NCBI GenBank assembly: GCA_023246355.1
Contig: JAHFIQ010000005.1
Coordinates: forward strand, 3,086-67,085
DNA length: 64,000 nt
Direction of reading: 5' to 3'
Source of the DNA: Candidatus Uhrbacteria bacterium
Lineage (GTDB): Bacteria; Patescibacteriota; Patescibacteriia; UBA9934; GWF2-40-263
The position numbers were made by a program, and so were the translations under genes. Positions 2,535-31,192 of the stretch are shown piece by piece (position 1 is the stretch's first letter; each line of letters begins with the position of its first letter). The notes below the pieces were generated by a model. The model saw nothing but the letters and a program-made list of their open reading frames with translations, made no database searches and was not told the origin of the DNA.

Positions 2535-2922
2535 TGGTGGAGCTGGGGAGAATCGAACTCCCGTCTGGAAGGATTCGCACCGTGATGGTTCCAAGTTCAT
2601 TCACGCCTGATACCTTGCCACGCTCAAGGCGTGAAGCAATACGTGACAAGGAGCCGATCGCAACTCTTGAACATGAGAGATCGGTGACCTCATGTTCCAG
2701 CCTGATGATATAACACCCGACTGTTGGTTATCAGACGTCACCAACGCGGATGGCCCTCAGCTTACGCGAGGACAGGGGCAAAAGATGGAACGCGAAATGC
2801 ATTCTTGATCATTGCCATGACGTTGTTTGCAGTTGTCGTCGTGCACGGAAATATTTACGAGCTGCCGTACCGGCTCGACTTGATCACGGATGGTAGGCCT
2901 ACCATCGATACCGATCAGCCCC
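2535..2922 (-). ncRNA. ssrA: tmRNA (SsrA)
   Basis: On the minus strand the 5' end GGGGCUGAUCGGUAUCGAUGG pairs with the 3' end ...GGGAGUUCGAUUCUCCCCAGCUCCACCA. This gives a tRNA-Ala-like acceptor with a G3:U wobble, a T-loop GUUCGAUUC and an encoded CCA. Candidate tag ORF ...AFRVPSFAPVLA-UAA. Lies next to smpB. Confidence 0.8.
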
Positions 2923-9589: not shown

Positions 9590-10659
9590 AACATTTTTCA
9601 ACAGCCACCATCCAGATCATGATCCTTGCCATCGTCCTTGGGGCTGGGAGCGGAGTGATTGCCACCGCGCTCACCAACAGCGCCCTGTCCCAATATGCCT
9701 TTGAGTTGTCAAAACTCACCGAGCCGCTGAGGCTCACGCAAGCCCAACCTCGTGCTGTGCCGCAGGGCTACGAAGACGCACTCACGACCCTTCAAACCGA
9801 ATCGCTCAAAGCCGTTGGTTCTGTCTTTTCCTCTGCCATTCCTGCAACCGGATTTTCCACAGAGGCTGCGCTAGGCCCTGTTGTGGCTCTCACCTCAGAC
9901 GGCTGGATGCTTTCTGCATTTGGATCCGTCGCCTCGCAGGTCGCGCTTGGCGATCAGTCCTGTGTGATCGATGATGTGCGTGTCCATGGTTCAGGTCTAT
10001 CTTTTCTCCATTGTGAAACAAGCAACGCGCCAGTCGTTGATCTAGGAGAAGGCTATGATCTTGCTCCGGGGGATCAAGTGTTTGTCGTGGAAGGTCCTGA
10101 GCGTTTCGTGTTTACGAGTGTGAAGTCGCTCACATGGGGAGGGAGTCCTGTACAGGCTTCTGATGAGCCTTCACGTCGCATAGCGCTCAGCTTTGACTCA
10201 ACACTGAAAGCTGGATCACCGGTGTTTAATCTCTCTGGGGAACTGGTTGGTGTGATTGATCCAACTCACGATGAGCCATTGGTGATCCCCTTTGAGCATC
10301 TGGCGATCGCGTTTGAACAAGTGCTGGAAGGTCGTGAAGCATTTTCATCAAGCACGCTTGGAGTCAAGGCGATTGAGCTTTCGCACACCGTTGGGTTGCC
10401 AGAGGATGTCACGCACGGACTCAAGAGTGGTGCGTTGTTATTTGATCGTGGATCCGTGGTCGCCGGAGGCGCTGCGCAAACAGCAGGACTGTTGCGAGGG
10501 GATGTGATTCTTTCCTTTGATGGAGAAACGATCGGAGAGAATCGAACACTCGATGATTTGGTCGCACGTGTCATGCCTGGCGTCGAGGTTGTCTTGGTTG
10601 TGGATCGGGGCGGTGAGAGAATGGAATTCACGGTGACATTGGGGTCTTCGTCTAAGTGA
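9580..10659 (+). CDS. Trypsin-like (HtrA/S1C-like) domain protein with C-terminal PDZ domain
   Basis: Clear PDZ (GLKSGALLFDRGSVVAGGAAQTAGLLRGDVILSFDGETIG). N-terminal domain is trypsin-fold-like, but the GDSGGP serine motif appears as GSPVFNLSGELVGV, so it may be inactive. Confidence 0.45.
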   Translation: MDMKHFSTATIQIMILAIVLGAGSGVIATALTNSALSQYAFELSKLTEPLRLTQAQPRAVPQGYEDALTTLQTESLKAVGSVFSSAIPATGFSTEAALGPVVALTSDGWMLSAFGSVASQVALGDQSCVIDDVRVHGSGLSFLHCETSNAPVVDLGEGYDLAPGDQVFVVEGPERFVFTSVKSLTWGGSPVQASDEPSRRIALSFDSTLKAGSPVFNLSGELVGVIDPTHDEPLVIPFEHLAIAFEQVLEGREAFSSSTLGVKAIELSHTVGLPEDVTHGLKSGALLFDRGSVVAGGAAQTAGLLRGDVILSFDGETIGENRTLDDLVARVMPGVEVVLVVDRGGERMEFTVTLGSSSK

Positions 10660-11321
10660 GTTATAATAGTTCTGGTATGAGTCAACCAAATTATCTTCGT
10701 GACATCATGAGCTCCTGGCATTCGGTGGTCATGTTTGGATTGCTTGGTCTTGTGCTTGCGCTCATTGTCTCGTTCGTTCAACCACTTCGCTATTCTTCCA
10801 CCGCGCGATTGCTCATCTTGCAAGATGTGGGTTCAAGTGTGGATGCCTACACTGCCTCGCGTGCTGAGGAACGCATTGCAGATAATCTTTCAACCCTCTT
10901 GTACACGAGCACGTTTTTTGATCAGGTCATGAATGCGGGATTTGATATCGACCAAACGATTTTTCCAGACGACGATTCTAAAGCGAGAAAAGTTTGGGGC
11001 AACATGGTGAACGCGACCGTGGCACGCGGTTCAGGACTGTTATCCGTAACCGCCTATCACCGCGACGTTGATCAGGCTGAACAAATCGTCCGAGCGATTG
11101 CACTGGTCCTCACAGAGCATGTCGATGAGTACACGTCAGGCGGGAGCGTTTCTGTGCGTCTTGTGGACGAGCCGCTGAATTCTCGGTGGCCGGTGAAGCC
11201 GAATATTTTGGTGAATATATTATCTGGGTTTATCCTAGGCGGCTTTGTTGGAATAGGGTTTGTCATGTTGCAAACCCAGCGTATTCGCCGTCGGCATCAG
11301 CTGGTGCATGAAGAATTTTAG
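10656..11321 (+). CDS. Wzz-like polysaccharide chain-length determinant family protein
   Basis: N-terminal TM, periplasmic domain, and C-terminal TM (ILVNILSGFILGGFVGIGFVMLQ) as in Wzz/GumC-type proteins. Confidence 0.5.
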   Translation: MSYNSSGMSQPNYLRDIMSSWHSVVMFGLLGLVLALIVSFVQPLRYSSTARLLILQDVGSSVDAYTASRAEERIADNLSTLLYTSTFFDQVMNAGFDIDQTIFPDDDSKARKVWGNMVNATVARGSGLLSVTAYHRDVDQAEQIVRAIALVLTEHVDEYTSGGSVSVRLVDEPLNSRWPVKPNILVNILSGFILGGFVGIGFVMLQTQRIRRRHQLVHEEF

Positions 11322-11877
11322 GTGGAGCAGGTGGCACAGGTGGATCAGGTGGTTAGATCCACCTTTTCTACCTAGTCCACCTTACCCACCTACCTAAAAA
11401 GCCCACATTGAGAACCTTCTTACTGGCGGATCGACGCGAGGAGGAGACGCGTGGAGCGCTGTGAGAAGGCCCTCAAAACGGGCTCTTTTTGTTTTCCTTT
11501 GGTTACTCTTGGCCGGCAAAAGGGTACCAAATACGTCAAAAAGCGTCAATTGCCAGCACGGCTTTTCCTGCCAGCCGCTCTTGACAAAAATTGCTTCCCG
11601 TGCTATCTTTGGACGTTCACCGTGAGACAGAAAACCGTGAATTGAAGCGGTTTGATGTTCGCTCATGACACCTCCTCCTTGTCGTGACGTGAATATCAGA
11701 CCACTTGAGGCCATGGTCACAGCGAGTTGGATATCAAGATGTCCCACTTGCTGTGACTATGCGCTGAGTTCTCTACAACCAGCCTAAGTCAACAATCTGT
11801 GTAGGGAGGTGGATAAGGTAGAAGAGGTGGAAAAGGTGGATCTAACCACCTGATCCACCTACTCCACCTACGCCACC
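11321..11877. mobile_element. MITE/IVS-like unit bounded by ~75-bp inverted GGTGGA-repeat arms
   Basis: Arm 11321..11394 is the near-exact reverse complement of arm 11802..11877, with the core aggtggatcaggtggttagatccacct. The ~400-bp cargo has a promoter-like TTGACA-17-TATCTT (11582..11610) and a small ORF. Confidence 0.5.
11394..11666 (-). CDS. Hypothetical 90-aa ORF inside the GGTGGA-bounded unit
   Basis: Strong SD (AAGGAGGAGG) 6 nt upstream of ATG 11666. No recognisable domain. Confidence 0.2.
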   Translation of the reverse strand: MSEHQTASIHGFLSHGERPKIAREAIFVKSGWQEKPCWQLTLFDVFGTLLPAKSNQRKTKRARFEGLLTALHASPPRVDPPVRRFSMWAF

Positions 11878-12008
11878 TTTCCCAACACACCCGTCGTTCC
11901 CCAGTCAGGGGCCGACGGTTGGGGTCACGCGGCATCCTGCCGAGTGAAGCCCATAAACGGTCCCTGACGGGTGGACAGCCACCCCCTACCCAGCCTGGAG
12001 AAGAAGTC

Positions 12009-13376
12009 ATGCGTATCGTCCTCCTTGCCGGCATTGCCGGCCTCATCAGCAGCTCCGCGTTCGCCGCCAGCCCCCACCCCACCGCGCAGGATGCGGACGG
12101 TGACGGGTCCTTCGTCTCGACCATGGACGTCAACGGCGACGGCGCCAAGGACGCCAAGGACATCGGCGTGAAGGCTTCGGCCTACGACTGCGACGACGGA
12201 CACAAGTCCATCCACCCGGGCGCGACGGAAGTCGTCGGCGACGGGACGGACCAGGACTGCAACGGCTCGGACCTCACCATGCCCGTCACCGACGTGGTCT
12301 GGAAGCGGTTCATCGCCAACGAGTACAAGGGCCGTGCCCCGTCCGTGGCGGTGTTCGCCGCCGAGTACGCCCGGGTCACCGCGGCCAGCTCGCGCATGAG
12401 CATCGACGCGATCGACGGGAAGTTCAAGGTCAGCGATCCGGACGTGGACGCCTTCCGCGACATCTACATCGGAACCTCGAAGGTCCTCGGGACCGACGGC
12501 ATCCGTGAGATCGTCACCCTGGAGGAGGCCTCCCACTTCCGCGGCGGCAGCGCCAGCGGCGGCGGGGGAGTCTCCACGAAGACCGTGATCAAGCTCGCCG
12601 ACAAGAGCGCCGAGAAGGCCGTCAAGGTCGAAACCGAGGCGCGCCTCAAGTGGCAGGTCGAGCGCGAAGGCGAGCTCGCCGGGATCACCCAGGCGGTGAA
12701 CACGCACGGTGAGGACATCGAGAAGAACGCGGAGGCGATCGAAGCCGAAGCCGAGGCGCGAGCCGACGCGGACGAGGTGCAGGATCGCGACATCAAGGCC
12801 GCCAAGGATGCGGCCGACGGCGCGGTCTCGACCGCCAACTCGATGGCGTCCCGTGGCACGTTGATCGAGGGCTATGCCCTCGCCGGCGCGCTCGTGGGTT
12901 CGCCCGTGACCGACGACGACGACTTCGCCCGTCAACCCCTCGGTGGTGGTGTCGGAGCAGGCATCAACATCGGTGCGGATCTCGAGGAGTCCCGAGTGAA
13001 CGCCTTCGTCGACGCCTTCATCGGCGGCGACGGTGGAGCGGGCCCGGCCCACTCCGAGGCCGTCGGGATCGAAATCGTGCCAGACGATGGGATCCTCGGC
13101 ATCGACCGCCTGGGCGGGTTCCTCGCCTACAGCCAGCGTTCGTCGCAGCCCAACGCCCTCGAGACGCAGGTCTTGGGGCGCAACCCGCTCATCGGCATCA
13201 GCTACGTGAGTACGTTCTCCCCGAACGCGAAGAACGGCGCCCACGGACTGTTCCAGGTCCGTCTCGGCGTCGGTCCCGAGTTCCTCGGGATCGCGGGTGA
13301 TCACGTCTCCGACGAAGTCGGAGTCGCGGGTCGCCTGACCATCGCGATCGGCGGCGGCATCGGCGCCCTGAAGTAG
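12009..13376 (+). CDS. Secreted protein with MopE-like Cys/Asp metal-binding motif
   Basis: Signal peptide MRIVLLAGIAGLISSSAFAAS, motif DCDDGHKSIHPGATEVVGDGTDQDCNG. GGAGAAG RBS. First gene of the GC-rich island. Confidence 0.5.
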   Translation: MRIVLLAGIAGLISSSAFAASPHPTAQDADGDGSFVSTMDVNGDGAKDAKDIGVKASAYDCDDGHKSIHPGATEVVGDGTDQDCNGSDLTMPVTDVVWKRFIANEYKGRAPSVAVFAAEYARVTAASSRMSIDAIDGKFKVSDPDVDAFRDIYIGTSKVLGTDGIREIVTLEEASHFRGGSASGGGGVSTKTVIKLADKSAEKAVKVETEARLKWQVEREGELAGITQAVNTHGEDIEKNAEAIEAEAEARADADEVQDRDIKAAKDAADGAVSTANSMASRGTLIEGYALAGALVGSPVTDDDDFARQPLGGGVGAGINIGADLEESRVNAFVDAFIGGDGGAGPAHSEAVGIEIVPDDGILGIDRLGGFLAYSQRSSQPNALETQVLGRNPLIGISYVSTFSPNAKNGAHGLFQVRLGVGPEFLGIAGDHVSDEVGVAGRLTIAIGGGIGALK

Positions 13377-13465
13377 CAACAGCTACGACGACTTAGGCTG
13401 GTGATAAATCGTGGCTGACCTCGCCTTCCGCGGAGACACGCAAGCGGTCCACGCCATTCGCTACG

Positions 13466-13500
13466 CCTAGCCGGCTTCCTTGTGAAAACAGGGGAGCCGG
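13466..13500 (+). terminator. Putative intrinsic terminator
   Basis: ccggcttcc...ggggagccgg stem followed by tattaattttt. Confidence 0.35.
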
Positions 13501-13746
13501 TATTAATTTTTGCCTGGTTTTTTGGCTGTTTGAAGCCATTGACAAACTCATCTAAATCTGGTACCTTAGTCTCTTCGTTCATTGAAACAAAACCCAGCAA
13601 TTCTTACGAAAAGAAGGTTGTAGGTTATAGGGAGTACGGGAAGGAATCGAGAGATTTGTGCGCAGAGATAGACTCTGCTTACAAACCTCTCGATTCCAAC
13701 GGCGCAAACCCGCGCCCGAGGGTCGTCTCACCAAAAGGAGAGGATC

Positions 13747-14490
13747 ATGACCCGTTTCACGCCCTTCACGGTCCTCGTGGCCGCAATGTTTTTCAACGCC
13801 TGCACGCCGATCGACATCGGCGACGACAAGGACGACTGCGACAAGTGCTCGGACACCGACGCGGACACGGACGCCGATGCGGACACGGACGCCGACACCG
13901 ACGCCGATTCCGATTCGGACACCGACGCTGACAGCGGCGACCCGGATCAGGACGGCGACGGCTACAGCACCGAGCCCGACTGCGACGACGCCAACGACGA
14001 CGTCTACCCCGGTGCCGACGAGATCTGCAACGACATCGATGACAACTGCGACGGCCAGATCGACGAGGGATGCGAGGACGACTGGTCCGACTACATCTGG
14101 TCCAGCGGCGACTACGTGTACTTCTCGGACGACGGCTTCTCCGGCGAGATGTACCCCGGGGCGTCGGCCTACATGGTCGGCTACGGCGGTGATCTCGACT
14201 GGACGCTGGACTCGAGCTACAAGGTCTCGCCCTCCAGCGGTGCCTACGCATTCAACACGTCCGGTTGGGACCACGACTGTTACGAGGTGACCTTGGTCTC
14301 CTCGCTCCAGTCCAACGGCTCCGCGGCCACGTCGATCGACAACACCGGCGACTGGTGGGACAACTTCGACCTCTGCGAATCGGAATCCGATACCGCGGAC
14401 TCGTGGTGTTCCTACCAGGGCGGCTACAACTACCTCGTCGCCTTCTGCGTGACCTCCTCGGGGGTCGTGCCGGACGGTGACGGGATCTAG
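13747..14490 (+). CDS. Lipoprotein with (TDAD)n linker and MopE-like Cys/Asp repeat
   Basis: Lipobox FFNAC, DTDADTDADADTDADTDADSDSDTDAD linker, DCDDANDDVYPGADEICNDIDDNCDGQIDEGCED motif. AAAGGAGAGG RBS. Confidence 0.55.
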   Translation: MTRFTPFTVLVAAMFFNACTPIDIGDDKDDCDKCSDTDADTDADADTDADTDADSDSDTDADSGDPDQDGDGYSTEPDCDDANDDVYPGADEICNDIDDNCDGQIDEGCEDDWSDYIWSSGDYVYFSDDGFSGEMYPGASAYMVGYGGDLDWTLDSSYKVSPSSGAYAFNTSGWDHDCYEVTLVSSLQSNGSAATSIDNTGDWWDNFDLCESESDTADSWCSYQGGYNYLVAFCVTSSGVVPDGDGI

Positions 14491-14684
14491 CCTTCCCTCG
14501 CGGTTGGCAACGTCCCTGGATTTCGGGGCGTCCGTAGTAGGTAAGGGTGCTGGGTCCTCCGGTGGTTGCTGATGCGCGGGGTTGTTGGACGAGAACCCGC
14601 GCCCGCACCCATCTCTCACCTCCTGGTTTCGGGGCTCCCTACTTGCTACGGGCGCCCCCATTCCAGGAGGCGTTTTATTTTGTG

Positions 14685-14727
14685 GGGAGGTGGAAGAGGT
14701 GGATTAGGTGGAAGAGGTAGGGCAAGG
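14685..14727. repeat. GGTGGA-repeat arm (left) of the unit carrying the four-helix-bundle gene
   Basis: ggaggtggaagaggtggattaggtggaagaggtagggcaagg. Inverted partner at 15121..15147. Confidence 0.5.
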
Positions 14728-15082
14728 AGGAAAACGGAGTTTAACTGAAAGACTTGCAAGCATTCTTTGAAGCTCGTAGATGAGCGTCAACAAGTTGTCG
14801 TCGTCCCTTGCATATCCCAATCGCACACAGAGCAAAACTTGAGTATCGAGCTCTGCAAGTGAACCTCGGGCTATGGCAATAAAGTGAGAATAATCCCTTC
14901 GTGTTCCTCTTGACTTTCCTTCGGCTATGTTGGATGGAACTGATATGGCGGAGCGTCTCATTTGAGACACAAGACCAAATCGTTCATCAGCAGGTAAGGT
15001 CTTTGTAAGTTCATAAACTTTCTCAACAATAATCATTGCTTTTTGCCACACAAATAGATCCTTGTATTTGATGTAAGCCATA
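14704..15082 (-). CDS. Four-helix-bundle protein (23S rRNA IVS protein / Avd-like family)
   Basis: MAYIKYKDLFVWQKAMIIVEKVYELTKTLPADERFGLVSQMRRSAISVPSNIAEGKSRGTRRDYSHFIAIARGSLAELDTQVLL matches the IVS four-helix-bundle family motif pattern. Lower GC than the surrounding genes. Confidence 0.7.
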
Positions 15083-15120
15083 CCTTTTGGTGATTTTACC
15101 ACCTTTCCCTTATTAATCTG

Positions 15121-15147
15121 ATCCACCTAGTCCACCTTTTCCACCTC
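15121..15147. repeat. GGTGGA-repeat arm (right)
   Basis: atccacctagtccaccttttccacctc, inverted relative to 14685..14727. Confidence 0.5.
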
Positions 15148-15396
15148 ACAACCTATGTCCACAACTCTTGACAAAATCACTAAAATATGATATAGTAAGC
15201 CGTTCAATAATGAGCAATAAAGCCTCATTTATTGGGACAAAACACGGTTTTCAACAGGTTAGGAAAGGGTACAGGACTTGTCCGTTTTGAAGCGACAGCA
15301 TAGGCTGATGCGCAAAACGGATACGTCCTGGCCGCCTCGCCCCGAGGTGGTTCAACCCTCCCCGAATGGGGAACCCTGCAACCTGGAGAAGAACCC

Positions 15397-16896
15397 ATGT
15401 CCCGTATCACCCTCCTGGCCCTCGTGGGCCTTTCCGCCGGCTGTGGCTTCGAAGTCGAGCGCGACAACGACTGCAACGAGTGCAGCAACATCGTCCCCGC
15501 CGACGCGGACACCGACACGGACACGGACGCCGACAGCGACGCGGACACCGACACGGACACCGCCGAGCCCACCGAGCCGTACTACGACGCGGATCGCGAC
15601 GGCTACTCGACGCTGCTCGACTGCAACGATGCCGACGCGGCGATCAACCCCACCGCAACCGAGGTCTGCGACAGCGCGGACAACGACTGCGACGGCGAGA
15701 TCGACGAAGGCCTGGCGACCGCGAGCTACTACGTCGACAACGACGGCGACGGCTACGGAGCCGGCGAAGCGGTCGAGTTGTGCGAGGTGCCCGAGTCGGG
15801 CTACAGCTCGGTCAGCGGCGACTGCAATGACGCCGACTCCGCGTTCTACCCCGGCGCCGAGGACGTCCCCGGCGACGGCCTGGACACGGACTGCGACGAC
15901 GAGACCGAGCCTGCGGACACCGAGACCAGCGACGGCGAGGACGACACGACCGGCGACGAGCCGGAAGACGAGTCCGAGACGGACGAGGGTTCCGGGTCCA
16001 CCGAGACCGACGACGGTTCCGACGAGGAGCCCGCGGTCGACGCGGATGCGGACGGCTACAGCGTCGTGAGCGATTGCGACGATTCCGATCCCGCGATCAA
16101 CCCCGGCGCGTCCGAGATCCTCGACAACGAGGTCGACGAGGATTGCGACGGAATCGCCCAGGTCACCCCGACCGAGAACGACGTCGACGGCGACGGTTCG
16201 GAAGTCGGGAGCGACTGCGACGACAGCGACGCCAGCGTCAGCCCCGCGGCCACCGAGGTCTGCGACAGCGTGGACAACGACTGCGACGGCTCGATCGACG
16301 AGGGTGTCACGAGTACGTTCTACGCGGACGTCGATGGCGATGGCTACGGCGGCTCCACCTCGAGTGTGACCGCCTGCTCCGTGTCCAGCGGCTACGTCGG
16401 GAACAGCACCGATTGCGACGACAGCGATGCGAGCGTCAGCCCCGCGGCCACCGAGAGCTTCGACGAGCAGGACAACGACTGCGATTCGGAGATCGACGAG
16501 GACTGGCAGATCGTGGCCGAGGTGACCTACGGGTCCTCCGGCTACTACGTCTTGAACGCGCAGGTGTTCGACGACGTGGACGAGCTCGGCAGCGCGTGGG
16601 ATCCCGAGACCGACACCGAGTCCTCCGGGACCACGGTCGCGATCGAGTACGCCACCGCCGAGTACGGCGACCTGTCCGCCTCCTGCGGGCTGCGCCTGAA
16701 CGTGAGCGAGGGCAACCCCGCCACGGACTGGCTCTGCTCCGGCTCCGCCATCGACACCGCGGCCGCCTCGGTCGACGTGTGGTTCTCCGGCACCTGGTAC
16801 GACGAGAGCGATCTCGTGGTCTGGGACGCCGGTCTCGGGAACGGCTCCTGCTCCGCGCTGCTCGTGGTCTCCACCTCGAGCGACTGCCAGCCCTAG
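15397..16896 (+). CDS. Lipoprotein with multiple MopE-like Cys/Asp repeats
   Basis: Lipobox LSAGC, (TD)n acidic linker, at least 6 repeats of the CxDxDxxxxPGAxExCDxxDNDCDGxIDEG type. Confidence 0.55.
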   Translation: MSRITLLALVGLSAGCGFEVERDNDCNECSNIVPADADTDTDTDADSDADTDTDTAEPTEPYYDADRDGYSTLLDCNDADAAINPTATEVCDSADNDCDGEIDEGLATASYYVDNDGDGYGAGEAVELCEVPESGYSSVSGDCNDADSAFYPGAEDVPGDGLDTDCDDETEPADTETSDGEDDTTGDEPEDESETDEGSGSTETDDGSDEEPAVDADADGYSVVSDCDDSDPAINPGASEILDNEVDEDCDGIAQVTPTENDVDGDGSEVGSDCDDSDASVSPAATEVCDSVDNDCDGSIDEGVTSTFYADVDGDGYGGSTSSVTACSVSSGYVGNSTDCDDSDASVSPAATESFDEQDNDCDSEIDEDWQIVAEVTYGSSGYYVLNAQVFDDVDELGSAWDPETDTESSGTTVAIEYATAEYGDLSASCGLRLNVSEGNPATDWLCSGSAIDTAAASVDVWFSGTWYDESDLVVWDAGLGNGSCSALLVVSTSSDCQP

Positions 16897-16921
16897 GCTC
16901 GGCAGGCTAGCCCCGCTAGCG

Positions 16922-16968
16922 ACAAACACCACGTTGGTGCTCGTCGTCAGCGGGGTGTTTGTTTTAGA
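16922..16968 (+). terminator. Putative intrinsic terminator
   Basis: caaacacc...ggtgtttg stem followed by ttttag. Confidence 0.35.
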
Positions 16969-16970
16969 CA

Positions 16971-17090
16971 CACCTGCAAAACTCGCGATCTTGCGTTTCA
17001 CGGGGCCCCACCACCTCCTCAACGTAGTTTTCACTACGTCTCGGAGGCTGGCTTCCCCGTTCAACGCAATCTCATCGAGTTTTGCAGGTG
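16971..17090 (-). repeat. 118-120-nt long-hairpin repeat element, copy a (inverted orientation)
   Basis: About 90% identical to the copies at 45063..45178 and 49926..50043. Perfect 15-bp terminal inverted repeat cacctgcaaaactcg/cgagttttgcaggtg. Confidence 0.7.
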
Positions 17091-17317
17091 TGTCTTGGTC
17101 ATTTTTGGCTATTCTTAGCGGAACCTATTGACAATTCCTGTGTATCATGGTAAAAGAAGCAGTCAAAAACATGGTACTTTGAGCCTGATCGCGAGCTGGC
17201 TTTTGTGGGATCGACCCCCAAAAGCCAGGCCGAGATCTTCCCAATCTCTCACTACCCCGCTCAGGCCTGGGTAAGTCCTTAGCGGGACGAGAGAAAACCC
17301 CCAAGTAGGAGACGAAG

Positions 17318-19726
17318 ATGCGTTCGCACTTCCTCTGTATCTGTATCCTGGCCCTCACGGGCTGTCCGACCTTCGAGGTCCAGCGAGATCCGGACGTGAC
17401 CGTCCTGCCGGTCGATCAAGACATCGACAACGACGGCGTCAGCATGGACATCGACTGCGACGACAGCGACGCGTCGATCGGTGGCCCCACGGCCTGGTAC
17501 CTCGATCTCGACGGCGATTCCTTCGGCGACAGCAACGTCTCCGAAGACGCTTGCGAGGCGTGGGATCGGTACGTGGCGATCGCCGGCGATTGCAACGACC
17601 AGGACGCCGGGATCAACCCCAGCGCGATCGAAGTGTGCGACGACGTCGACAACGACTGCGAAGGCACGATCGACGAAGGCGCAAGCGATGCCACGGCATG
17701 GTTCGCGGATGCGGATCAGGACAGCTACGGCGACGTGGAGAACTACGTCACGGCCTGCGACCAGCCCGATGGCTACATCGGCGACTGGAGCGACTGCGAC
17801 GATGCCAACCCGGCCGTGAACCCCGGCGAGTCCGAGGTCTGCGACGAGATCGACCAGAACTGCAACGGTGAAGTCGACGAGGGTGTGCAGAGCACGTACT
17901 TCGCGGACGTCGACGGCGATTCCTTCGGGGACGCCGAGAGCTCCGCGGACGCGTGTTTGGCGCCCAGTGGCTACGTGGAAGACGCGACCGATTGCAACGA
18001 CGGTGAGGCTTCGGTGAACCCGAGCGCCACCGAAGTGTGCAACGGCATCGACGACGACTGCGAAGGCACGATCGACGAAGGCGCAAGCGATGCCAGCACC
18101 TGGTACAGCGACGTCGATGGCGACGGCTTCGGCGACGTGAACGTGAGCGAGATTTCCTGCGAGGCCTCATCCGGCTTCGTGAGCGATTCCGCGGACTGCA
18201 ACGACACCGACGCCAGCGTGAACCCCTCCGCGATCGAGACCTGCGACAACATCGACAACGATTGCGATGGCGCCGTGGATCCCTCGACCTCCGTGGGCAC
18301 CGGTACCTGGTACGTGGACGACGACAACGACGGCTGGGGCGACAGCTCCGGCACGCCGGTCGTGCAGTGCACCCAGCCCGATGGCTACCTGGCCGATGCG
18401 AGCGATTGCGATGACAGCGACGCCACGGTGAACCCGAGTGGGACCGAGGTGTGCGACGGCATCGACAACAACTGCGACGGGTCCACGGATCCGGACGACA
18501 GCGCGGACGTCAGCACCTGGTACGCGGATCTGGACGGCGATGCCTTCGGGAATGCGAGCGTGAGCTCGGTTTCCTGCGAGGCCGACCCCGGGTTCGTGGC
18601 CGATGCGACCGATTGCGACGACACGGAGTCCTCGGTGAACCCGAGCGCCACCGAAGTCTGCAACGAGGTCGACGACGACTGCGACAGCGCGGTCGACGAG
18701 GACGTGGAGATCACGTTCTACGGCGACTGGGACAACGACGGGTACGGCAACAGCGCCGTCACCGAGTCGGCGTGCGAAGCCTCGGCAGGCTACGTGAGTG
18801 ATGGGAGCGATTGCGACGACACCAAGTCGGCGGTCAACCCCGGAGCGAGCGAAGTCTGCGACGAGATCGACGACGACTGTGACGGTCTCACCGACGATCA
18901 GGACGACTCTACGGACGAGTCCACGATGTCGGAGTTCTACGCCGACGCCGACGCCGACACCTACGGCGATGCCAGCTCGAGCTATGTCTCGTGCGAAGCG
19001 CCCGATGGCTACGTCGAAGACGCAACGGATTGCGACGACGGTGACGTCGGAAGCTATCCGGACGCGCCCGAGACCTGCGACGGCCTCGACAACGACTGCG
19101 ATGGCAGCGTGGACGAGAACCTCTACTCCGATTGGTACGAGGATCTCGACGGTGACCTGTTCGGCGCCGGAGCGGTGGTCAGCGTGATCTGCAACGGTTC
19201 CACCGGGAACCTCGTGGACAACGCGGACGATTGCGACGACAACGAATCGGGAACCAACCCGGACGCGACCGAGGTGTGCGACGAGATCGACAACAACTGC
19301 GACGGCGACGTCGACGAAGGTGTCGAGACGACGTACTACCAGGATGCGGACGGCGACAGCTACGGCGATGCGTCCACCAGCGACGATGCCTGCGAAGCGC
19401 CCAGCGGGTACGTGGAGGATTCCACGGACTGCGACGACGCCGATGCGAGCGTGAATCCCGGTGTGGCCGAGATCGATGCCAATGGCATCGACGACGACTG
19501 CGACGGGGGAATCGACGACGAGGGCATCTATTGCTGCCTGGACAACGACAGCGATGGCTACGGCGATCCCTCGTACTGCGAGTACGAAGGCACCGGGGTC
19601 TGCGACAGCGGCTACGTCGAAGGCGATGGCGACTGCGAAGATCACAACTACGCGGTTCACCCTCTCAGCCTGGACATTCCCGGCGACGGTGAGGATTCCG
19701 ACTGCGACGGCGATACCGAAGGCTAG
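17318..19726 (+). CDS. Large lipoprotein with ~13 MopE-like Cys/Asp repeats
   Basis: Lipobox LTGC. Repeated CDDxDxxxNPxAxExCDxIDNDCDGxVDEG units along the whole protein. AGGAGA RBS. Confidence 0.6.
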   Translation: MRSHFLCICILALTGCPTFEVQRDPDVTVLPVDQDIDNDGVSMDIDCDDSDASIGGPTAWYLDLDGDSFGDSNVSEDACEAWDRYVAIAGDCNDQDAGINPSAIEVCDDVDNDCEGTIDEGASDATAWFADADQDSYGDVENYVTACDQPDGYIGDWSDCDDANPAVNPGESEVCDEIDQNCNGEVDEGVQSTYFADVDGDSFGDAESSADACLAPSGYVEDATDCNDGEASVNPSATEVCNGIDDDCEGTIDEGASDASTWYSDVDGDGFGDVNVSEISCEASSGFVSDSADCNDTDASVNPSAIETCDNIDNDCDGAVDPSTSVGTGTWYVDDDNDGWGDSSGTPVVQCTQPDGYLADASDCDDSDATVNPSGTEVCDGIDNNCDGSTDPDDSADVSTWYADLDGDAFGNASVSSVSCEADPGFVADATDCDDTESSVNPSATEVCNEVDDDCDSAVDEDVEITFYGDWDNDGYGNSAVTESACEASAGYVSDGSDCDDTKSAVNPGASEVCDEIDDDCDGLTDDQDDSTDESTMSEFYADADADTYGDASSSYVSCEAPDGYVEDATDCDDGDVGSYPDAPETCDGLDNDCDGSVDENLYSDWYEDLDGDLFGAGAVVSVICNGSTGNLVDNADDCDDNESGTNPDATEVCDEIDNNCDGDVDEGVETTYYQDADGDSYGDASTSDDACEAPSGYVEDSTDCDDADASVNPGVAEIDANGIDDDCDGGIDDEGIYCCLDNDSDGYGDPSYCEYEGTGVCDSGYVEGDGDCEDHNYAVHPLSLDIPGDGEDSDCDGDTEG

Positions 19727-19740
19727 GTCTTCACGACCAA

Positions 19741-19778
19741 CGACCCGACTCAGCACTGCTGGGTCGGTTTTCTATTTG
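19741..19778 (+). terminator. Putative intrinsic terminator
   Basis: GC stem cgaccc/gggtcg followed by gttttctatttg. Confidence 0.4.
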
Positions 19779-19779
19779 T

Positions 19780-19850
19780 GACGATCGCAAAAAGTTTTTA
19801 GAAAATTTGCGATCGCAAAAAATTTTTCCGCCGTTTGCGATCGTCACCTT
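19780..19850. repeat. Three direct repeats containing the palindrome GCGATCG(C/T)
   Basis: gacgatcgcaaaaag / ttgcgatcgcaaaaaa / ttgcgatcgtcacc spaced about 25 bp apart, upstream of the 19995 gene. Confidence 0.4.
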
Positions 19851-19994
19851 TAGCCTGTTTGGCTAAAATAAGCTAAGAAAGTTTGTTTGCTTGGGGATAG
19901 AAGGCTTGACAGTTCTTCGGTATTCAGGCAATCTTCCAACCTCCACCAGCGCCGGCGGGATCCTCCGTTTGTGACTGGTTGAGGCCACCTCCCC

Positions 19995-22211
19995 ATGGAG
20001 AGCAACGTGAACCGATGTCTTTGGGCCCTTTGGGCCTGTGTACTGTTTTTCCTGGCAGGATGCCAGGGCTTCAACACCGCAACCGACGAGTCCTACGACA
20101 AGCAGGCAGCCTCCCGCGGCACCGGCCCGGACGATGACGGCGACGGCTACGGCGCGGTCCTCGACTGCGACGACACCGACGAGGACGTCAATCCCGGCGC
20201 CAACGAAGATCCCAGCAACGAGATCGACGACGACTGCGATGGCGCCACGGACTGCGACGACAACTCGGCCGACCTCACCGAGTCGTGCTACGACGGCGAT
20301 GACGATGGCGACTGCGCGGACACCAACGGCGACGGCGAGATCGACGTGGTCTTCCTGTGCAACGTCGACAACGACGAGAACGCAGCCACGATCGCGGCGC
20401 AGACCGGCGGCGATGCAGATCTCATCCAGAACTACATCGAGGTCGAGTACGAGGGTGACTCGGTTTCGGGCTACACCCTGCCCGATCCCGACTGCAACGA
20501 CGACAACGCGGATGTGAACCCCTCGGCCTCCGAGGTGTGCAACGGCGTGGACGACGATTGCAACGACCAGGTCGACGACGGCGTTTCGACTCCCACCGCG
20601 TTCTACGCGGATGCGGACGAGGACGGCTTCGGCGATGCGGACAGCTCGGTCACCGAGTGCGAGATGCCCTCGGGCTACGTCTCGGACTGGACCGACTGCG
20701 ACGATACCAACGCGGCGATCAATCCCGATGCGATCGAAGTCTGCGACGACGGTGACGTCGACGAAGACTGTGATGGTTCGGACGATGGTTCGGATGCGAT
20801 CGGCATGACCGACTGGTACCTCGACGCGGACGACGACTCGTACGGTGATGTCTACGTTTCCACCTCGTGCGACAACCCGTCCAGCGAAGTGCTCGTGGAC
20901 AACAGCGACGATTGCGACGACGACAACGCCGACGTGAATCCGGAAGCGATCGAGGTCTGCAACGGCTTCGACGATGACTGTGACGACATGATCGACGACG
21001 AGGACGACTCCACGGACGAGTCCACGATGACCGATTGGTACGTCGACAGTGATGTGGATGGTTACGGCAGCAGTGCCACCAGTACCACCCAGGCGTGCGA
21101 CATGCCATCGGGCTACGTCAGCAATGCCACCGACTGCAACGACTCGGCCCCCGGAATCAACCCCGCTGCCACCGAGATCTGCGACAGTGCGAACGTGGAC
21201 GAGGACTGCGACGGGCTGAGCGACAATCTGGATTCCTCTGCATCCAGTTCCGGCAAGAGCACGTTCTACGCGGACGTCGATCTCGACGGCTACGGGAACT
21301 CGGCTTCCACCAGCAGTGCCTGCGACGCCTCTACCGGCTGGGTCACGAATTCCACCGATTGCAACGACGCGGACGCGACGGCTTACCCCGGCGCTACCGA
21401 ATCGTGTGACGGTGTGGACGACGACTGCGACGGTACGGCCGACGACGGCGTGGAGACCACGTTCTACGCGGACACGGATGATGATGGTCGTGGCAATGCC
21501 AGCTCGACCGAGTCCGCCTGCGAAGCCTCCACGGGCTACGTGAGCAACTCGGACGACTGCGATGACACGGACGAGACCGTCTACTTGAACGCCGACGAGC
21601 TGTGCGACGACCAGGACAACGACTGCGACAGTGATGTCGACGAAGCGGCGGTCGATCAGACCACCTGGTCGCGCGATCGTGACGGAGACGGCTACGGAAA
21701 CCCCGATGCCGCGACCTTCACGAGCTGCGATGCGCCCGGCGGGTACGTGGAGACGAGCGGCGACTGCGATGACACGGACGAGGACGTCAATCCGGCGGCC
21801 ACGGAAGTGTTCAACGAGTACGACGACGACTGCGACGACCTGATCGACGAGAACACGAGCTGCATCACGGTGATCGAGATCTTGAACGATGGCGGTGAAG
21901 CCACGACGATTTCGGCGATCGTGAGCGACGACTCGACGCTCGACGGCGAGTGGTATCCGGGCGGCGTCCCCGGTGTGTCGGTGGTCGCGACCTCCTTGGG
22001 AGGCGACGACTGGGACTACGAGAGCACCATGGATCTGTGCATCGGGAGCTCCGGCTACGTGATCATCCACGCCGAGTTCGAGGACGGTTCCTCGCTGTGC
22101 GAGAGCATGGCGGCGACCGGCCTCGTCTACGGGACCATGGATGACATCGATCTGGACGCGGTCGCCTACGACAACCTCGACGGCACCTGCGACACGATCC
22201 TCACGCGCTAG
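19995..22211 (+). CDS. Large lipoprotein with MopE-like Cys/Asp repeats
   Basis: Lipobox FLAGC. At least 10 MopE-like repeats, then a C-terminal non-repeat ~120 aa. Confidence 0.6.
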   Translation: MESNVNRCLWALWACVLFFLAGCQGFNTATDESYDKQAASRGTGPDDDGDGYGAVLDCDDTDEDVNPGANEDPSNEIDDDCDGATDCDDNSADLTESCYDGDDDGDCADTNGDGEIDVVFLCNVDNDENAATIAAQTGGDADLIQNYIEVEYEGDSVSGYTLPDPDCNDDNADVNPSASEVCNGVDDDCNDQVDDGVSTPTAFYADADEDGFGDADSSVTECEMPSGYVSDWTDCDDTNAAINPDAIEVCDDGDVDEDCDGSDDGSDAIGMTDWYLDADDDSYGDVYVSTSCDNPSSEVLVDNSDDCDDDNADVNPEAIEVCNGFDDDCDDMIDDEDDSTDESTMTDWYVDSDVDGYGSSATSTTQACDMPSGYVSNATDCNDSAPGINPAATEICDSANVDEDCDGLSDNLDSSASSSGKSTFYADVDLDGYGNSASTSSACDASTGWVTNSTDCNDADATAYPGATESCDGVDDDCDGTADDGVETTFYADTDDDGRGNASSTESACEASTGYVSNSDDCDDTDETVYLNADELCDDQDNDCDSDVDEAAVDQTTWSRDRDGDGYGNPDAATFTSCDAPGGYVETSGDCDDTDEDVNPAATEVFNEYDDDCDDLIDENTSCITVIEILNDGGEATTISAIVSDDSTLDGEWYPGGVPGVSVVATSLGGDDWDYESTMDLCIGSSGYVIIHAEFEDGSSLCESMAATGLVYGTMDDIDLDAVAYDNLDGTCDTILTR

Positions 22212-30111: not shown

Positions 30112-30396
30112 TTAATCTTCCTTTTCTTCCTTGAGCCCTTCTGGATTAGGTGAGTACAACTTGGCGTTGATTTTCCACTGATCCACAAATTGACCAATGC
30201 CGCCCTTGTCCCGCTTGTTCCGCACGGTGGTGGTGCGTTGTGACCATCGTAGCAAAGATTCAAAATTCAGTTTGTACCTGCCTTGGACGACCACGTAGGT
30301 AATTTCGCCAGAAAGAATTGCCCGACGAACCGTGCGTTGGCTCACGCCGAACATCTTTGCAGCTTCGGAGACGGAAAGACGAATAATGGATTTCAT
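30112..30396 (-). CDS. Excisionase/MerR-type helix-turn-helix DNA-binding protein
   Basis: SVSEAAKMFGVSQRTVRRAILSGEI is an HTH_17/excisionase-family motif. 94 aa. Confidence 0.55.
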   Translation of the reverse strand: MKSIIRLSVSEAAKMFGVSQRTVRRAILSGEITYVVVQGRYKLNFESLLRWSQRTTTVRNKRDKGGIGQFVDQWKINAKLYSPNPEGLKEEKED

Positions 30397-30397
30397 A

Positions 30398-30487
30398 GGG
30401 AAGGTGGACTAGGTGGATGAGGTGGAAAGGTTGAAAGGATTAAATGATCGGAACCACCTAATCCACCTTGGCTACCTTATCCACCTG
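30398..30487. repeat. Stand-alone GGTGGA-repeat long hairpin (empty member of the inverted-repeat unit family)
   Basis: gggaaggtggactaggtggatgaggtggaaagg - loop attaaatgatcgg - aaccacctaatccaccttggctaccttatccacctg. Lies immediately 5' of the HTH gene. Confidence 0.55.
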
Positions 30488-30628: not shown

Positions 30629-31192
30629 GTGCAACCAACAAAGCGTGAAAAATTCCTGCTCACAAGAATCCGAGTTTTTAAGGACGAACACGCATTCGAG
30701 GCGCTTTTGAGTGAATACTCACCAGCACTCCAACGGTTCCTTTACAGCAAACTTCCCAATCACCACGATGTTGAGGATGCCTATTCCACACTCATGCTTC
30801 GGCTCTGGGAATACACGATCCGGACGCCGGTTGAACATTTTTCCGGACTGGCTTACACGATTGCCCGCGGGGTCGTTGCAGAGTTCTATCGATACCGGGA
30901 AGGGAAGGAACAGGTCCCTATCAGTGGAGGAGAGGGCGAAGAAGGAGTCGAAGTCGAATCTGGGTATTCTGCTGAATACGTCGAGACGCAGATCGACTCA
31001 CAGCTTGTGAAGGAAGGAATGAAGAAACTGAAAAATGAAGATGATAGGGAAATCCTGTTACTGCGCTTTGTCGAGGGTTATCGAGTGAAAGACATTGCCA
31101 AGTACCTGGGCAAAACAGAAAATGCCACTTCGGTGCTCATCTACCAAGCCTTGAAAAAAATTCGTGCAAGCATTTTGAAAAGAAAAACATAG
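30629..31192 (+). CDS. RNA polymerase sigma factor, sigma-70/ECF family
   Basis: Region 2 (DVEDAYSTLMLRLWEY) and region 4 HTH (DREILLLRFVEGYRVKDIAKYLGKTENATSVLIYQALKKIR). GTG start. Confidence 0.65.
   Translation: MQPTKREKFLLTRIRVFKDEHAFEALLSEYSPALQRFLYSKLPNHHDVEDAYSTLMLRLWEYTIRTPVEHFSGLAYTIARGVVAEFYRYREGKEQVPISGGEGEEGVEVESGYSAEYVETQIDSQLVKEGMKKLKNEDDREILLLRFVEGYRVKDIAKYLGKTENATSVLIYQALKKIRASILKRKT

What the first reader, a model, noticed from the sequence alone, without database searches (positions are those of the whole stretch)
11321..11877. Family of insertion units bounded by inverted arrays of GGTGGA-type 9-10-bp repeats (three loci)
The arms at 11321..11394 and 11802..11877 are near-exact reverse complements, sharing the 27-nt palindromic core aggtggatcaggtggttagatccacct. 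The same arm architecture bounds the four-helix-bundle unit (14685..15147) and forms a cargo-less hairpin at 30398..30487. In unit 1 the left arm starts exactly at the stop codon of the Wzz-like gene. Its ~400-bp cargo carries a well-formed promoter (TTGACA-17-TATCTT) that reads toward the MopE island, plus a small ORF with a very strong SD. This looks like a MITE-like or IVS-like mobile module that can deliver promoters or small genes.
Basis: seen in the sequence. Interest (0 to 1): 0.6.

Follow-up and report, generated by a model that had tools for sequence, protein, structure and literature searches.

The report
IVS-like four-helix-bundle cassettes and empty stems
The repeats are real and belong to the same kind of selfish stem-and-gene element known from ribosomal RNA "intervening sequences", here sitting between ordinary genes of a candidate-phyla-radiation bacterium, and they point to a wider, apparently undescribed link between this gene family and short tandem-repeat families in bacteria.

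Summary
AGGTGGAWN nonamers form arrays facing inverted CCACCT arrays at four places in the window (24 pattern hits, 0.19 expected).

The span 11321-11877 is not one unit with a 400-bp cargo. It is two separate, complete hairpins (11320-11397 and 11797-11884). They flank resident intergenic DNA, promoter included, that related genomes conserve.

In relatives, the hairpin 1 site holds a PF05635 gene (23S-rRNA-IVS protein, Avd-like four-helix bundle) exactly in the hairpin loop. That matches the window's own unit at 14685-15154. Two strains with identical flanks carry cassettes only 60-76% identical, and one of those cassettes matches a more distant genome. Empty hairpins are present or absent at orthologous sites.

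These are therefore IVS-type cassettes and their gene-less stems, lying outside rRNA in a Uhrbacteria-like genome.

The architecture is general. Of 56 PF05635 loci, 34 are bracketed by inverted short-tandem-repeat arrays (controls 3/100). The arrays are mostly heptamers, and the G-rich arm lies upstream in 33/36. In Xanthomonas the flanking motif is the genome-wide GGGAATC family.

How the elements move and what the protein does are inferred, not shown.

The parts
10656..11321 (+). Wzz/GNVR-like gene. Its TAG stop codon (11319-11321) is supplied by the first repeat unit. The likely true start is ATG at about 10677.
   Evidence: ORF. Pfam GNVR 3e-08 and Wzz 1e-03. In relatives the last 3-4 codons change with the cassette: HQE*, HEDL*, HEEF* (A2).
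11320..11397 (.). Hairpin 1, a gene-less stem. Four AGGTGGNNN units (11320-11352), a 6-nt loop, and four NNNCCACCT units (11359-11391).
   Evidence: RNA fold -44.5 kcal/mol, z -5.8. It aligns to the two arrays that flank a PF05635 gene at the same site in L146 and L162, with the roughly 380-bp gene falling in the loop (A2). L170-L180 carry a PF05635 gene directly after the same Wzz-like gene (gene tables).
11398..11796 (+). Resident intergenic DNA, not cargo. It holds a small hairpin with an AGGAGGAG loop (about 11430-11455), a terminator-like site (11468-11484 plus T-run), the promoter-like TTGACA-17-TATCTT (11581-11609), and a conserved block containing ACACCTCCTCCTTGT (about 11646-11690).
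   Evidence: Window 11359-11481, which runs from the inverted array of hairpin 1 into this block, is 83-84% identical to L146 and L162. The flanking genes are about 70%. The promoter and downstream block are invariant in L170, L173 and L180 (A3). Promoter and terminator scan.
11394..11666 (-). 90-aa ORF with a strong SD (AAGGAGGAGGTGT). Probably not a conserved gene.
   Evidence: No Pfam hit for the enclosing 117-aa ORF 11394-11747. In L170 and L180 the homologous frame is interrupted after about 16-20 codons by an extra hairpin. Homology to L146 ends at 11481. Gene callers do call it in sister contigs.
11797..11884 (.). Hairpin 2, a gene-less stem. It is an inverted copy of hairpin 1 (84% over 82 nt, 27 nt exact).
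   Evidence: Fold -51.8 (+) and -56.9 (-) kcal/mol. It is orthologous to the third leader hairpin of L170 and L173, followed by the same CCCAACACACCCGTCGT flank (A3).
14685..14730 (-). Downstream (C-rich in ORF sense) repeat array of the full cassette. It encodes the last 8-10 residues and the stop codon of the ORF.
14704..15084 (-). PF05635 four-helix-bundle ORF (23S rRNA IVS protein, Avd-like), 126 aa counted from ATG 15084.
   Evidence: Pfam 1.3e-35. PDB 2GSC XCC0516, 3.8e-29. 6032 homologues at E<=1e-10. Family-invariant residues are present (A4).
15123..15154 (-). Upstream (G-rich in ORF sense) repeat array of the full cassette.
   Evidence: The 496-nt sense transcript folds with the two arrays forming the closing stem (-157 kcal/mol, z -5.4).
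30402..30486 (.). Hairpin 3, a gene-less stem with a 20-28-nt loop. It lies 5 nt upstream of the ATG of an HTH_17 gene (30112-30396, minus strand) and upstream of an ECF-type sigma factor gene (30629-31192).

Best explanation
The window holds one full and three gene-less copies of an IVS-type element. A full copy has three parts: a G-rich array of 4-5 AGGTGGAWN nonamers, a PF05635 ORF (the family found inside rRNA intervening sequences and homologous to the DGR accessory protein Avd), and the inverted C-rich array. A gene-less copy is the same two arrays joined by a short loop.

Shown:
- At the site right after the Wzz-like gene, the window has the bare stem where seven relative loci read directly (L146, L162, L170, L171, L173, L180) or sharing the same gene order (L172-L179) have stem plus gene. 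Parsimony says the ORF was lost in the window lineage.
- The cassette is exchanged horizontally as a unit.
- Bare stems come and go at orthologous intergenic sites.
- The 400 bp between hairpins 1 and 2 is ordinary conserved intergenic DNA.

Inferred:
- The elements are transcribed with their host operons.
- The two arrays pair into a long interrupted stem that holds the flanking RNA together, as an IVS stem does in rRNA. This would make insertion between coupled genes tolerable, and the stem may be cut by RNase III.
- Cassettes spread or are replaced by recombination in or near the arrays. No transposase is involved.
- The conserved core with a free spacer, and 4-5 units per arm, suggest that the pentameric protein recognises the repeats.
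For: Anatomy.
Cargo identity.
Closing stem.
Orthologous full versus empty site: A2 and BLAST. The same gene order (PDZ protease, then Wzz-like gene, then PF05635) occurs in L170-L180, including Patescibacteria MAG GCA_035290265.1.
Cassette replacement: L146 and L162 are 97-100% identical per 100-nt window over 3.8 kb (all but five windows 100%). Across the cassette they are 60-76% identical. The L162 cassette is 85-96% identical to that of L170, whose flanks are only 60-84% identical.
Stem presence or absence: the PDZ|Wzz spacer is filled in L146, L162 and L170 and empty in the window and L180. Leader hairpins i and ii are in L170 and L180 but not in the window (A3).
Generality: 34/56 PF05635 loci have a significant flanking inverted repeat against 3/100 control ORFs. 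The arms are tandem arrays, period 7 in 23/27. The G-rich arm is upstream in 33/36.
Intra-operon sites: sdhA|sdhB, SNF2|MmeI, TraC|PrgI, accB|accC, cas6|cas4, cmr2|cmr3 (PMC3936711).
Precedent in a true IVS: Coxiella has a 28-bp terminal stem, GACAGAT heptamers upstream of the S23p ORF, and RNase III excision (PMC4990558). PF05635 ORFs occur in CPR rRNA insertions (PMC11270868).
Against: None of the copies is in rRNA, which is the defining location of an IVS. There are no expression or cleavage data. The 3-nt spacers are often unpaired, so the stems are 6-7-bp helices separated by 2x2 or 3x3 internal loops. That is a poorer RNase III substrate than the Coxiella stem. The window's cassette is antisense to both neighbouring genes, and no sigma-70-like promoter was found for it. 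No target-site duplication or insertion-site consensus was found. How bare stems reach new sites is unexplained. Cassette replacement could be ordinary homologous recombination of a variable locus after DNA uptake. Only 64 kb of this genome was seen.
Confidence: 0.7

Rival explanations
1. The arrays are operator sites for the PF05635 pentamer. The protein binds one repeat per subunit on RNA or single-stranded DNA, as the ring proteins TRAP and HutP bind spaced triplets. In this view the dispersed stems form a post-transcriptional regulon, not selfish DNA. This overlaps with the best explanation.
For: The 7-nt core AGGTGGA is conserved while the spacer varies, over 165 units. Spacers are frequently unpaired. 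Arms hold 3-6 units, and the median arm in other lineages is about 31 nt, or 4-5 heptamers. The homologue XCC0516 is deposited with five chains and described as a pentamer (PMC3936711 ref. 48; PMC4990558). The motif that flanks the gene is the motif dispersed in the genome, both here and in Xanthomonas (PMC4692102). The polarity is strand-specific.
Against: A regulator would not be expected inside rRNA helices or between accB|accC, sdhA|sdhB or cmr genes. It would also not be expected to be swapped between near-identical strains. Coxiella S23p appears not to be made in vivo (PMC4990558). No binding data exist.
Confidence: 0.25
2. The hairpins are host structural RNA elements, such as terminators or 3'-end mRNA stabilisers of the REP type. 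They are conserved for the benefit of neighbouring genes, and the PF05635 gene merely lodges in them.
For: Hairpin 1 and several relatives start at a stop codon. Hairpin 2 is conserved at its site in L170. The folds are strong.
Against: No T-run follows any of them. The terminator-like site of the Wzz-like transcript is a separate structure at 11468-11484. Some stems lie just before start codons or right after a promoter. Presence or absence varies between close relatives. A plain stem needs no conserved periodic motif.
Confidence: 0.1
3. The span 11320-11884 is an invertible promoter switch. The two inverted hairpins act as recombination sites, and flipping the 395-bp segment turns the promoter toward or away from the MopE-like surface-protein genes.
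For: There are 82-nt inverted repeats with a 27-nt exact core flanking a promoter-bearing segment next to surface-protein genes.
Against: Every contig seen has the same orientation. This covers the window, two sister contigs by gene order, and L170, L171, L173 and L180. In relatives the left repeat is split by a gene. No recombinase gene is adjacent. Each hairpin also carries direct homology to the other, so recombination could just as well delete the segment.
Confidence: 0.05
4. This is the first reader's model: one MITE-like composite unit whose inverted ends mobilise a 400-bp cargo carrying a promoter and a small gene.
For: The inverted ends and the internal promoter and ORF.
Against: The 'cargo' is syntenic, conserved DNA in five relatives. 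Both ends are separately conserved or separately occupied sites. No target-site duplication was found. The ORF is not conserved.
Confidence: 0.03
5. The repeats are an assembly artefact or an rRNA-derived chimera.
For: One sister contig ends at hairpin 1, so the repeats do break assemblies.
Against: Three independent assemblies are 98.8-100% identical across the units. The elements sit in syntenic protein-coding context in many metagenomes. Rfam finds no rRNA in the window or in 15 related loci.
Confidence: 0.01

Closest known systems
rRNA intervening sequences that carry an S23p/PF05635 ORF (Coxiella burnetii, Leptospira, Brucella; also CPR 16S and 23S insertions)
   Same: Same ORF family. 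Similar size (463 bp here, 428-444 nt in Coxiella). Terminal inverted repeats that close a stem around the ORF. Short tandem repeats with variable copy number directly upstream of the ORF. ORF-containing and ORF-less versions both exist. Distribution is sporadic, pointing to horizontal transfer (PMC4990558, PMC11270868).
   Different: The elements here lie between, or at the ends of, protein-coding genes rather than in an rRNA helix. The repeats are nonamers with a 2-nt free spacer, not heptamers. The stem is interrupted rather than near-perfect. RNase III processing is untested.
Heptameric simple-sequence-repeat families of bacteria (Xanthomonas GGGAATC; Nostoc GGGGAYT; Beggiatoaceae and cyanobacterial TAACTGA)
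   Same: Intergenic tandem arrays of one genome-specific short motif. They often abut stop or start codons. In Xanthomonas 70-75 sites are convergent (inverted) pairs, lengths vary between close relatives, and most are transcribed (PMC4692102, PMC4679880). In X. citri the PF05635 gene is flanked by inverted arrays of that same motif.
   Different: Those papers interpret the repeats as G-quadruplex formers or regulatory sites and do not mention the PF05635 gene. The period is 7 there and 9 here.
REP/REPIN elements with their RAYT gene (REPtrons)
   Same: Species-specific short palindromic intergenic elements. A single protein gene is itself flanked by inverted copies of them. Many gene-less copies are dispersed in the genome.
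   Different: The flanked gene is a four-helix bundle with no HUH/Y1 transposase motifs. The arms are tandem arrays. No mobilising activity is known.
MITEs
   Same: Small, non-coding, inverted ends, intergenic, with insertion polymorphism between relatives.
   Different: No target-site duplication. Copies share only a 7-nt core, not full-length identity. No partner transposase has been identified.
Avd, the accessory protein of diversity-generating retroelements
   Same: Homologous pentameric four-helix-bundle fold (weak PF22296 hit; PMC10053308).
   Different: No reverse transcriptase gene and no template or variable repeat lies within or next to the units.

Membership tests
rRNA intervening sequence (IVS) with S23p ORF | ORF of the PF05635 / TIGR02436 four-helix-bundle family | tested here: met
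   Pfam 1.3e-35 against a cutoff of 33.8 bits. PDB 2GSC 3.8e-29. This applies to unit 14685-15154. The three hairpins have no ORF, like the ORF-less IVSs.
rRNA intervening sequence (IVS) with S23p ORF | Terminal inverted repeats that pair to close a stem around the element | tested here: met
   Predicted closing stem of the two arrays in the sense transcript. Hairpins score z -4 to -7.
rRNA intervening sequence (IVS) with S23p ORF | Inserted in a helix of 23S (h9, h25, h45) or 16S rRNA | tested here: not met
   Rfam finds only tmRNA in the window and no rRNA in 15 related loci. All four copies lie among protein-coding genes.
rRNA intervening sequence (IVS) with S23p ORF | Excised from the precursor by RNase III without religation | not testable with these tools
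MITE | Target-site duplication flanking the terminal inverted repeats | tested here: not met
   Filled versus empty sites (PDZ|Wzz spacer, leader hairpin i) show no duplicated flank. Divergence of the compared genomes limits resolution.
MITE | Multiple near-identical full-length copies derived from a transposase-bearing parent | tested here: not met
   Copies share the AGGTGGA core, but spacers and loops differ. Only hairpins 1 and 2 are close (84%). No transposase was seen within or directly beside the four units. The rest of the window was not screened for one.
REP/REPIN-RAYT | Associated gene is a Y1 HUH transposase (RAYT) | tested here: not met
   The flanked gene is PF05635.
Intrinsic terminator | G+C-rich stem immediately followed by a T-run | tested here: not met
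   In the two regions scanned (11250-12050 and 14550-15420) the only terminator-like site is 11468-11484, outside the hairpins. The sequences after hairpins 1, 2 and 3 lack T-runs.
Diversity-generating retroelement | Reverse transcriptase plus template/variable repeat pair next to the Avd-like gene | tested here: not met
   The neighbours of the cassette are MopE-motif proteins. No RT gene is adjacent. The rest of the genome is unseen.
Bacterial heptamer SSR families (Xanthomonas GGGAATC type) | Genome-specific motif in tandem intergenic arrays, often as convergent pairs | tested here: met
   Four array pairs in the window and 21 in 162 kb of lineage loci. The period is 9 rather than 7.

The most novel reading that the evidence does not exclude
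PF05635 pentamers and their cognate short tandem-repeat arrays form a widespread two-component system that has not been recognised as such. The gene sits between inverted arrays of its own motif. The same motif is seeded through the genome as solo arrays and hairpins. In this reading the protein binds, and perhaps propagates or processes, these repeats. That would give one explanation both for rRNA IVSs and for the long-unexplained heptamer repeat families of Xanthomonas, cyanobacteria and others. The nonamer version here would be its CPR branch.
Probability: 0.3. Interest if true: 0.85.

Novelty: new variant of a known kind. Interest (0 to 1): 0.62.

Why it matters
IVSs and their S23p ORFs have been known since the early 1990s without an accepted function or mode of spread. 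Over-represented heptamer repeats in bacterial genomes are similarly unexplained. This locus shows the same module outside rRNA, with full, empty and swapped alleles at one orthologous site. It also led to a simple rule that can be checked: a G-rich tandem array, then the PF05635 ORF, then the inverted C-rich array, with the motif shared with the genome's dispersed repeats. That rule ties the two puzzles together. Xanthomonas offers a solved protein structure, genetics and a published repeat catalogue, so the idea can be tested directly there. For annotation, it means 'four helix bundle protein' genes wedged inside operons (accBC, sdhAB, cas/cmr) and the hairpins near them should be read as one element. 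Contig breaks at such hairpins are to be expected.

Tried and rejected
1. GTDB pattern scan with three AGGTGG units. Only Thermoflexales (L047, L117) and one Chitinophaga contig showed inverted pairs. It was not useful for counting.
2. The metagenome hairpin pattern also returned unrelated classes: CGAAGGTGG hairpins with conserved GGCTGGGTGTGGGC flanks, perfect 60-nt palindromes, and coding repeats. These were set aside.
3. Rfam at gathering and at E<=1 gave only sub-threshold miRNA-hairpin models.
4. A search for target-site duplications or an insertion consensus at filled versus empty sites found none.
5. Strand asymmetry (G·U versus A·C pairs, E+ versus E-) as a clue to the transcribed strand. 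The favoured strand did not track neighbouring gene orientation, so no conclusion was drawn.
6. L160 as an empty-site allele of the window's full cassette: synteny was not demonstrable.
7. The 90-aa ORF as cargo: no family match and not conserved.
8. Exact-protein look-up using the ATG start failed. The gene caller had used the GTG start at 15126.
9. Ralph & McClelland 1993 (PMC47033) is not held. Statements about Leptospira rest on citations in PMC4990558.
10. Motif-versus-protein-clade covariation was considered and dropped. Shared descent would produce the same pattern as specific recognition.
Full report
WHAT IS THERE

The sequence at 11320-11397 reads AGGTGGAGC AGGTGGCAC AGGTGGATC AGGTGG, then the loop TTAGAT, then CCACCT TTT CTACCT AGT CCACCT TAC CCACCT. 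This is a complete hairpin made of four nonamers and their inverted partners. The sequence at 11797-11884 is the same thing in the opposite orientation. The two are 84% complementary over 82 nt and share a 27-nt exact match.

A third copy with a 20-28-nt loop lies at 30402-30486. A fourth has its two arrays 392 nt apart. One array is at 14685-14730 and the other at 15123-15154. Between them lies an ORF on the minus strand.

The two-unit pattern occurs 24 times in the window against 0.19 expected. TRF finds period 9 for every array. Pooling 165 units from this lineage gives the consensus AGGTGGAWN.

All three hairpins fold far better than shuffled sequence, at -40 to -57 kcal/mol and z -4 to -7 on either strand. 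Three independent assemblies of the same strain are 98.8-100% identical across the units.

WHAT THE CARGO IS

The ORF at 14704-15084 (minus strand) is a PF05635 '23S rRNA-intervening sequence protein', E 1.3e-35, with a weak bAvd hit. Its closest solved relative is XCC0516 of Xanthomonas campestris, PDB 2GSC, described in the literature as a pentamer of four-helix bundles (PMC4990558, PMC10053308). The family is very large, with 6032 proteins at E<=1e-10.

The 496-nt sense transcript is predicted to close through pairing of the two arrays, which encloses the ORF. That is the architecture of an rRNA IVS. The last residues and the stop codon of the ORF are encoded by the downstream array.

The nearest named homologues of this protein and of a neighbouring glycosyltransferase come from Patescibacteria and Candidatus Uhrbacteria.

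WHY 11321-11877 IS NOT ONE UNIT

A metagenomic relative, L146, carries the same gene order: PDZ protease, then the Wzz-like gene. Window 10683-11355 aligns to L146 3250-3921. Window 11359-11481 aligns to L146 4300-4422.

The 380 bp that L146 has in between is a PF05635 gene. It falls exactly in the loop of the window's hairpin 1 (alignment A2). The same site is occupied by a PF05635 gene in L162, in L170-L179 (one of which is Patescibacteria MAG GCA_035290265.1) and in L180. Hairpin 1 is therefore the gene-less allele of a full cassette. Parsimony favours loss of the ORF in the window lineage.

The DNA to the right of hairpin 1 continues in the relatives. It includes a small hairpin with an AGGAGGAG loop and a terminator-like site at 11468-11484. 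It also includes the TTGACA-17-TATCTT promoter at 11581-11609 and a block containing ACACCTCCTCCTTGT (A3).

Hairpin 2 is orthologous to the third of three hairpins in the L170 and L173 leader, and is followed by the same flank. The other two L170 hairpins are absent from the window (A3). The 90-aa minus-strand ORF is cut short in L170 and L180 by one of those extra hairpins and has no family match.

The '400-bp cargo' is therefore resident DNA lying between two independent elements.

EVIDENCE FOR MOVEMENT

L146 and L162 are 97-100% identical in every 100-nt window across 3.8 kb of flank, and all but five windows are 100%. They drop to 60-76% identity exactly across the cassette, arrays included.

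The left breakpoint lies in the last 3-4 codons of the Wzz-like gene. The element supplies that gene's stop codon. The right breakpoint lies inside the downstream array (A2).

The L162 cassette is 85-96% identical to the L170 cassette, although the flanks of these two genomes are only about 60-84% identical. The cassette has therefore been exchanged horizontally as a unit.

Gene-less stems also vary between relatives:
- The 17-nt PDZ|Wzz spacer is empty in the window and in L180. In L146, L162 and L170 it holds a hairpin of about 85 nt that fills the spacer, starting just after the stop codon and ending at the start codon.
- Leader hairpin i is present in L170 and L180 and absent from the window.

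At shared sites the spacers differ much more than the flanking genes do, while the core is kept. This suggests turnover or conversion among copies. No target-site duplication was seen.

THE ARCHITECTURE IS GENERAL

I collected 51 PF05635 loci from IMG/VR and added five others. For 34 of the 56, the best inverted repeat between the 5' and 3' flanks exceeds shuffled controls by z>4. Only 3 of 100 neighbouring control ORFs do so. Some loci are near-duplicates, so these counts are not fully independent.

The arms are tandem arrays whose motif differs from element to element. Examples are ACGTTCA, GGGCTTT, TAGGCTG, GCAGAAG and GGAACTAA. The best period is 7 in 23 of 27, 8 in three, and irregular in one. 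On the ORF's sense strand the upstream arm has G>C in 33 of 36 elements, p = 2e-7.

The genes sit inside operons:
- sdhA|sdhB in a Flavobacteriales MAG
- SNF2|MmeI in Gimesia
- TraC|PrgI in Saccharibacteria
- accB|accC in Xanthomonas citri
- cas6|cas4 in Anabaena sp. 90
- cmr2|cmr3 in Picosynechococcus

The cas association was noted earlier in PMC3936711.

The Coxiella IVS has the same features: a 28-bp terminal stem, GACAGAT heptamers of variable copy number before the S23p ORF, and RNase III excision (PMC4990558). PF05635 ORFs also occur in CPR rRNA insertions (PMC11270868).

The window's elements are thus a nonamer variant of a common design, located outside rRNA.

A LINK TO GENOME-WIDE REPEAT FAMILIES

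In this lineage the motif that brackets the gene is the same as the motif of the dispersed stems and solo arrays. An example of a solo array is L131 2433-2465.

I tested this on Xanthomonas. Rehm et al. (PMC4692102) catalogued about 186 GGGAATC heptamer arrays there, 70-75 of them as convergent pairs. They did not mention the protein.

The X. citri homologue of XCC0516 lies between accB and accC. It is flanked upstream by GGGAATC GGGAGTG GAGAATG GGGAATC and downstream by the inverted CCCACTC CCCATTC TCGACTC CCTATTC. Solo arrays in the same 20 kb begin at stop codons, as hairpin 1 does here.

Plasmid hits for the family are almost all cyanobacterial. Four of the six plasmid loci examined have inverted heptamer flanks, and the two Nostoc PCC 7120 copies have a heptamer array on the downstream side only. 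From memory, heterocystous cyanobacteria are also the classic home of 'STRR' heptamer repeats. I did not test identity with those motifs.

I found no paper in the searchable library that connects PF05635 with these repeat families.

HOW IT MOST LIKELY WORKS

The following points are shown:
- The anatomy of the elements.
- The full and empty alleles at one orthologous site.
- The horizontal cassette exchange.
- The polymorphism of stems between relatives.
- The cross-phylum rule.

The following points are inferred:
- The element is transcribed with its host genes.
- The arrays pair, so the upstream stop codon and the downstream start codon (or the two rRNA halves) stay adjacent in space. That would explain why insertion inside tightly coupled operons is tolerated.
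- RNase III may cut the stem, as it does in true IVSs.
- Cassettes move or are replaced by recombination in or near the arrays.

Several features hint that the pentamer recognises its own repeats: the conserved core with free, often unpaired spacers, the 4-5 units per arm, and the strict G-rich-upstream polarity. This is speculation.

Several facts count against a simple picture:
- The stems here are interrupted helices.
- The window's cassette is antisense to its neighbours and has no predicted promoter.
- The way bare stems reach new sites is unknown.

RIVALS

- A pure regulon of protein-binding sites is compatible with much of the data. It fits poorly with rRNA and intra-operon locations and with cassette swapping.
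- Terminator or stabiliser hairpins are contradicted by the missing T-runs, by positions before start codons, and by the polymorphism.
- An invertible promoter switch between the two inverted hairpins is conceivable. However, every contig seen has the same orientation.
- The composite-MITE reading and the artefact or rRNA-chimera reading are contradicted.

VERDICT

It is wrong about the unit boundaries and the 'cargo'.

For the window itself this is a new variant of a known kind. The broader rule it exposed may be of more interest than the locus.

Noticed in passing
window 44407-44487: A perfect 27-nt inverted repeat (TGGGGTCAGGTCCGACTTCCGACTTTT / AAAAGTCGGAAGTCGGACCTGACCCCA) with a 27-nt spacer, 81 nt in all and in frame, lies inside a GT2 glycosyltransferase ORF (43949-45049). 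The arms contain a TCCGACT doublet. In protein alignment A6 this stretch (GVRS...DLTP) is a hypervariable insertion present in the closest Uhrbacteria homologues and absent from more distant ones. It looks like an in-frame palindromic element, comparable to Rickettsia palindromic elements.
   Followed up: partly
window 11398-11500: A non-coding block just downstream of hairpin 1 holds a small hairpin with an AGGAGGAG loop and a terminator-like site. The aligned stretch 11359-11481, which includes the inverted array of hairpin 1, is 83-84% identical to L146 and L162. It is near-invariant in L170 and L180. It is more conserved than the flanking genes (about 70%). Its function is unknown.
   Followed up: partly
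window 11646-11690: A conserved leader block GAAGCGGTTTGATG...ACACCTCCTCCTTGTNGTGACG lies downstream of the conserved promoter. It contains an anti-Shine-Dalgarno-like CACCTCCT on the plus strand, which reads as a strong SD on the minus strand. It is unclear which strand matters.
   Followed up: no
window 12000-22000: A G+C island of 58-68% within a genome of about 50% G+C encodes several Asp-rich proteins with many MopE-type 'putative metal-binding motif' repeats (up to 11 per protein). Three of the four elements lie at its edge or inside it.
   Followed up: no
window 37191-37230: GAGGTGGAA x4.4 lies inside the ORF 36249-37736 (BNR/Ycf48-like). It has no inverted partner and is probably a coding (Glu/Val-rich) coincidence.
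   Followed up: partly
L047 230-450 and L117 4700-5000 (Thermoflexales MAG, Chloroflexota): Long hairpins built from 9-11-nt AGGTGG/AGGTTTG-type repeats sit directly after a stop codon in a different phylum. No PF05635 gene lies within the fetched DNA.
   Followed up: no
L124, L125, L127, L136, L137, L144, L153, L154: A separate family occurs in high-G+C metagenome contigs: CGAAGGTGG / CCACCTTCG hairpins with a conserved GGCTGGGTGTGGGC flank. It was not examined further.
   Followed up: no
L158 7250-7780: The same contig carries an AGGTGG hairpin (526-623) and a second PF05635 gene (45% identical to the window's). That gene is bracketed by a different repeat (GGGAAGTGAG / CTCACTTCCC). One genome can therefore hold two motif families.
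   Followed up: partly
window 11320-11884; L150, L155, L158, L170: Forward arms often carry AGGTAG where the partner is CCACCT. One strand's RNA then gets A·C mismatches and the other gets G·U pairs, with energy differences up to 17 kcal/mol. The favoured strand does not follow neighbouring gene orientation. This is unexplained.
   Followed up: partly
L241, L242 (Nostoc PCC 7120 plasmids alpha and gamma): Both plasmids are annotated with the same four-helix-bundle protein accession (WP_010994075.1). Each copy lies next to transposase genes and has a CTCTGCC heptamer array on the downstream side only.
   Followed up: no
window 2535-2922: A tmRNA gene lies on the minus strand (Rfam 123 bits). 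It is also present at the syntenic position in L170.
   Followed up: no
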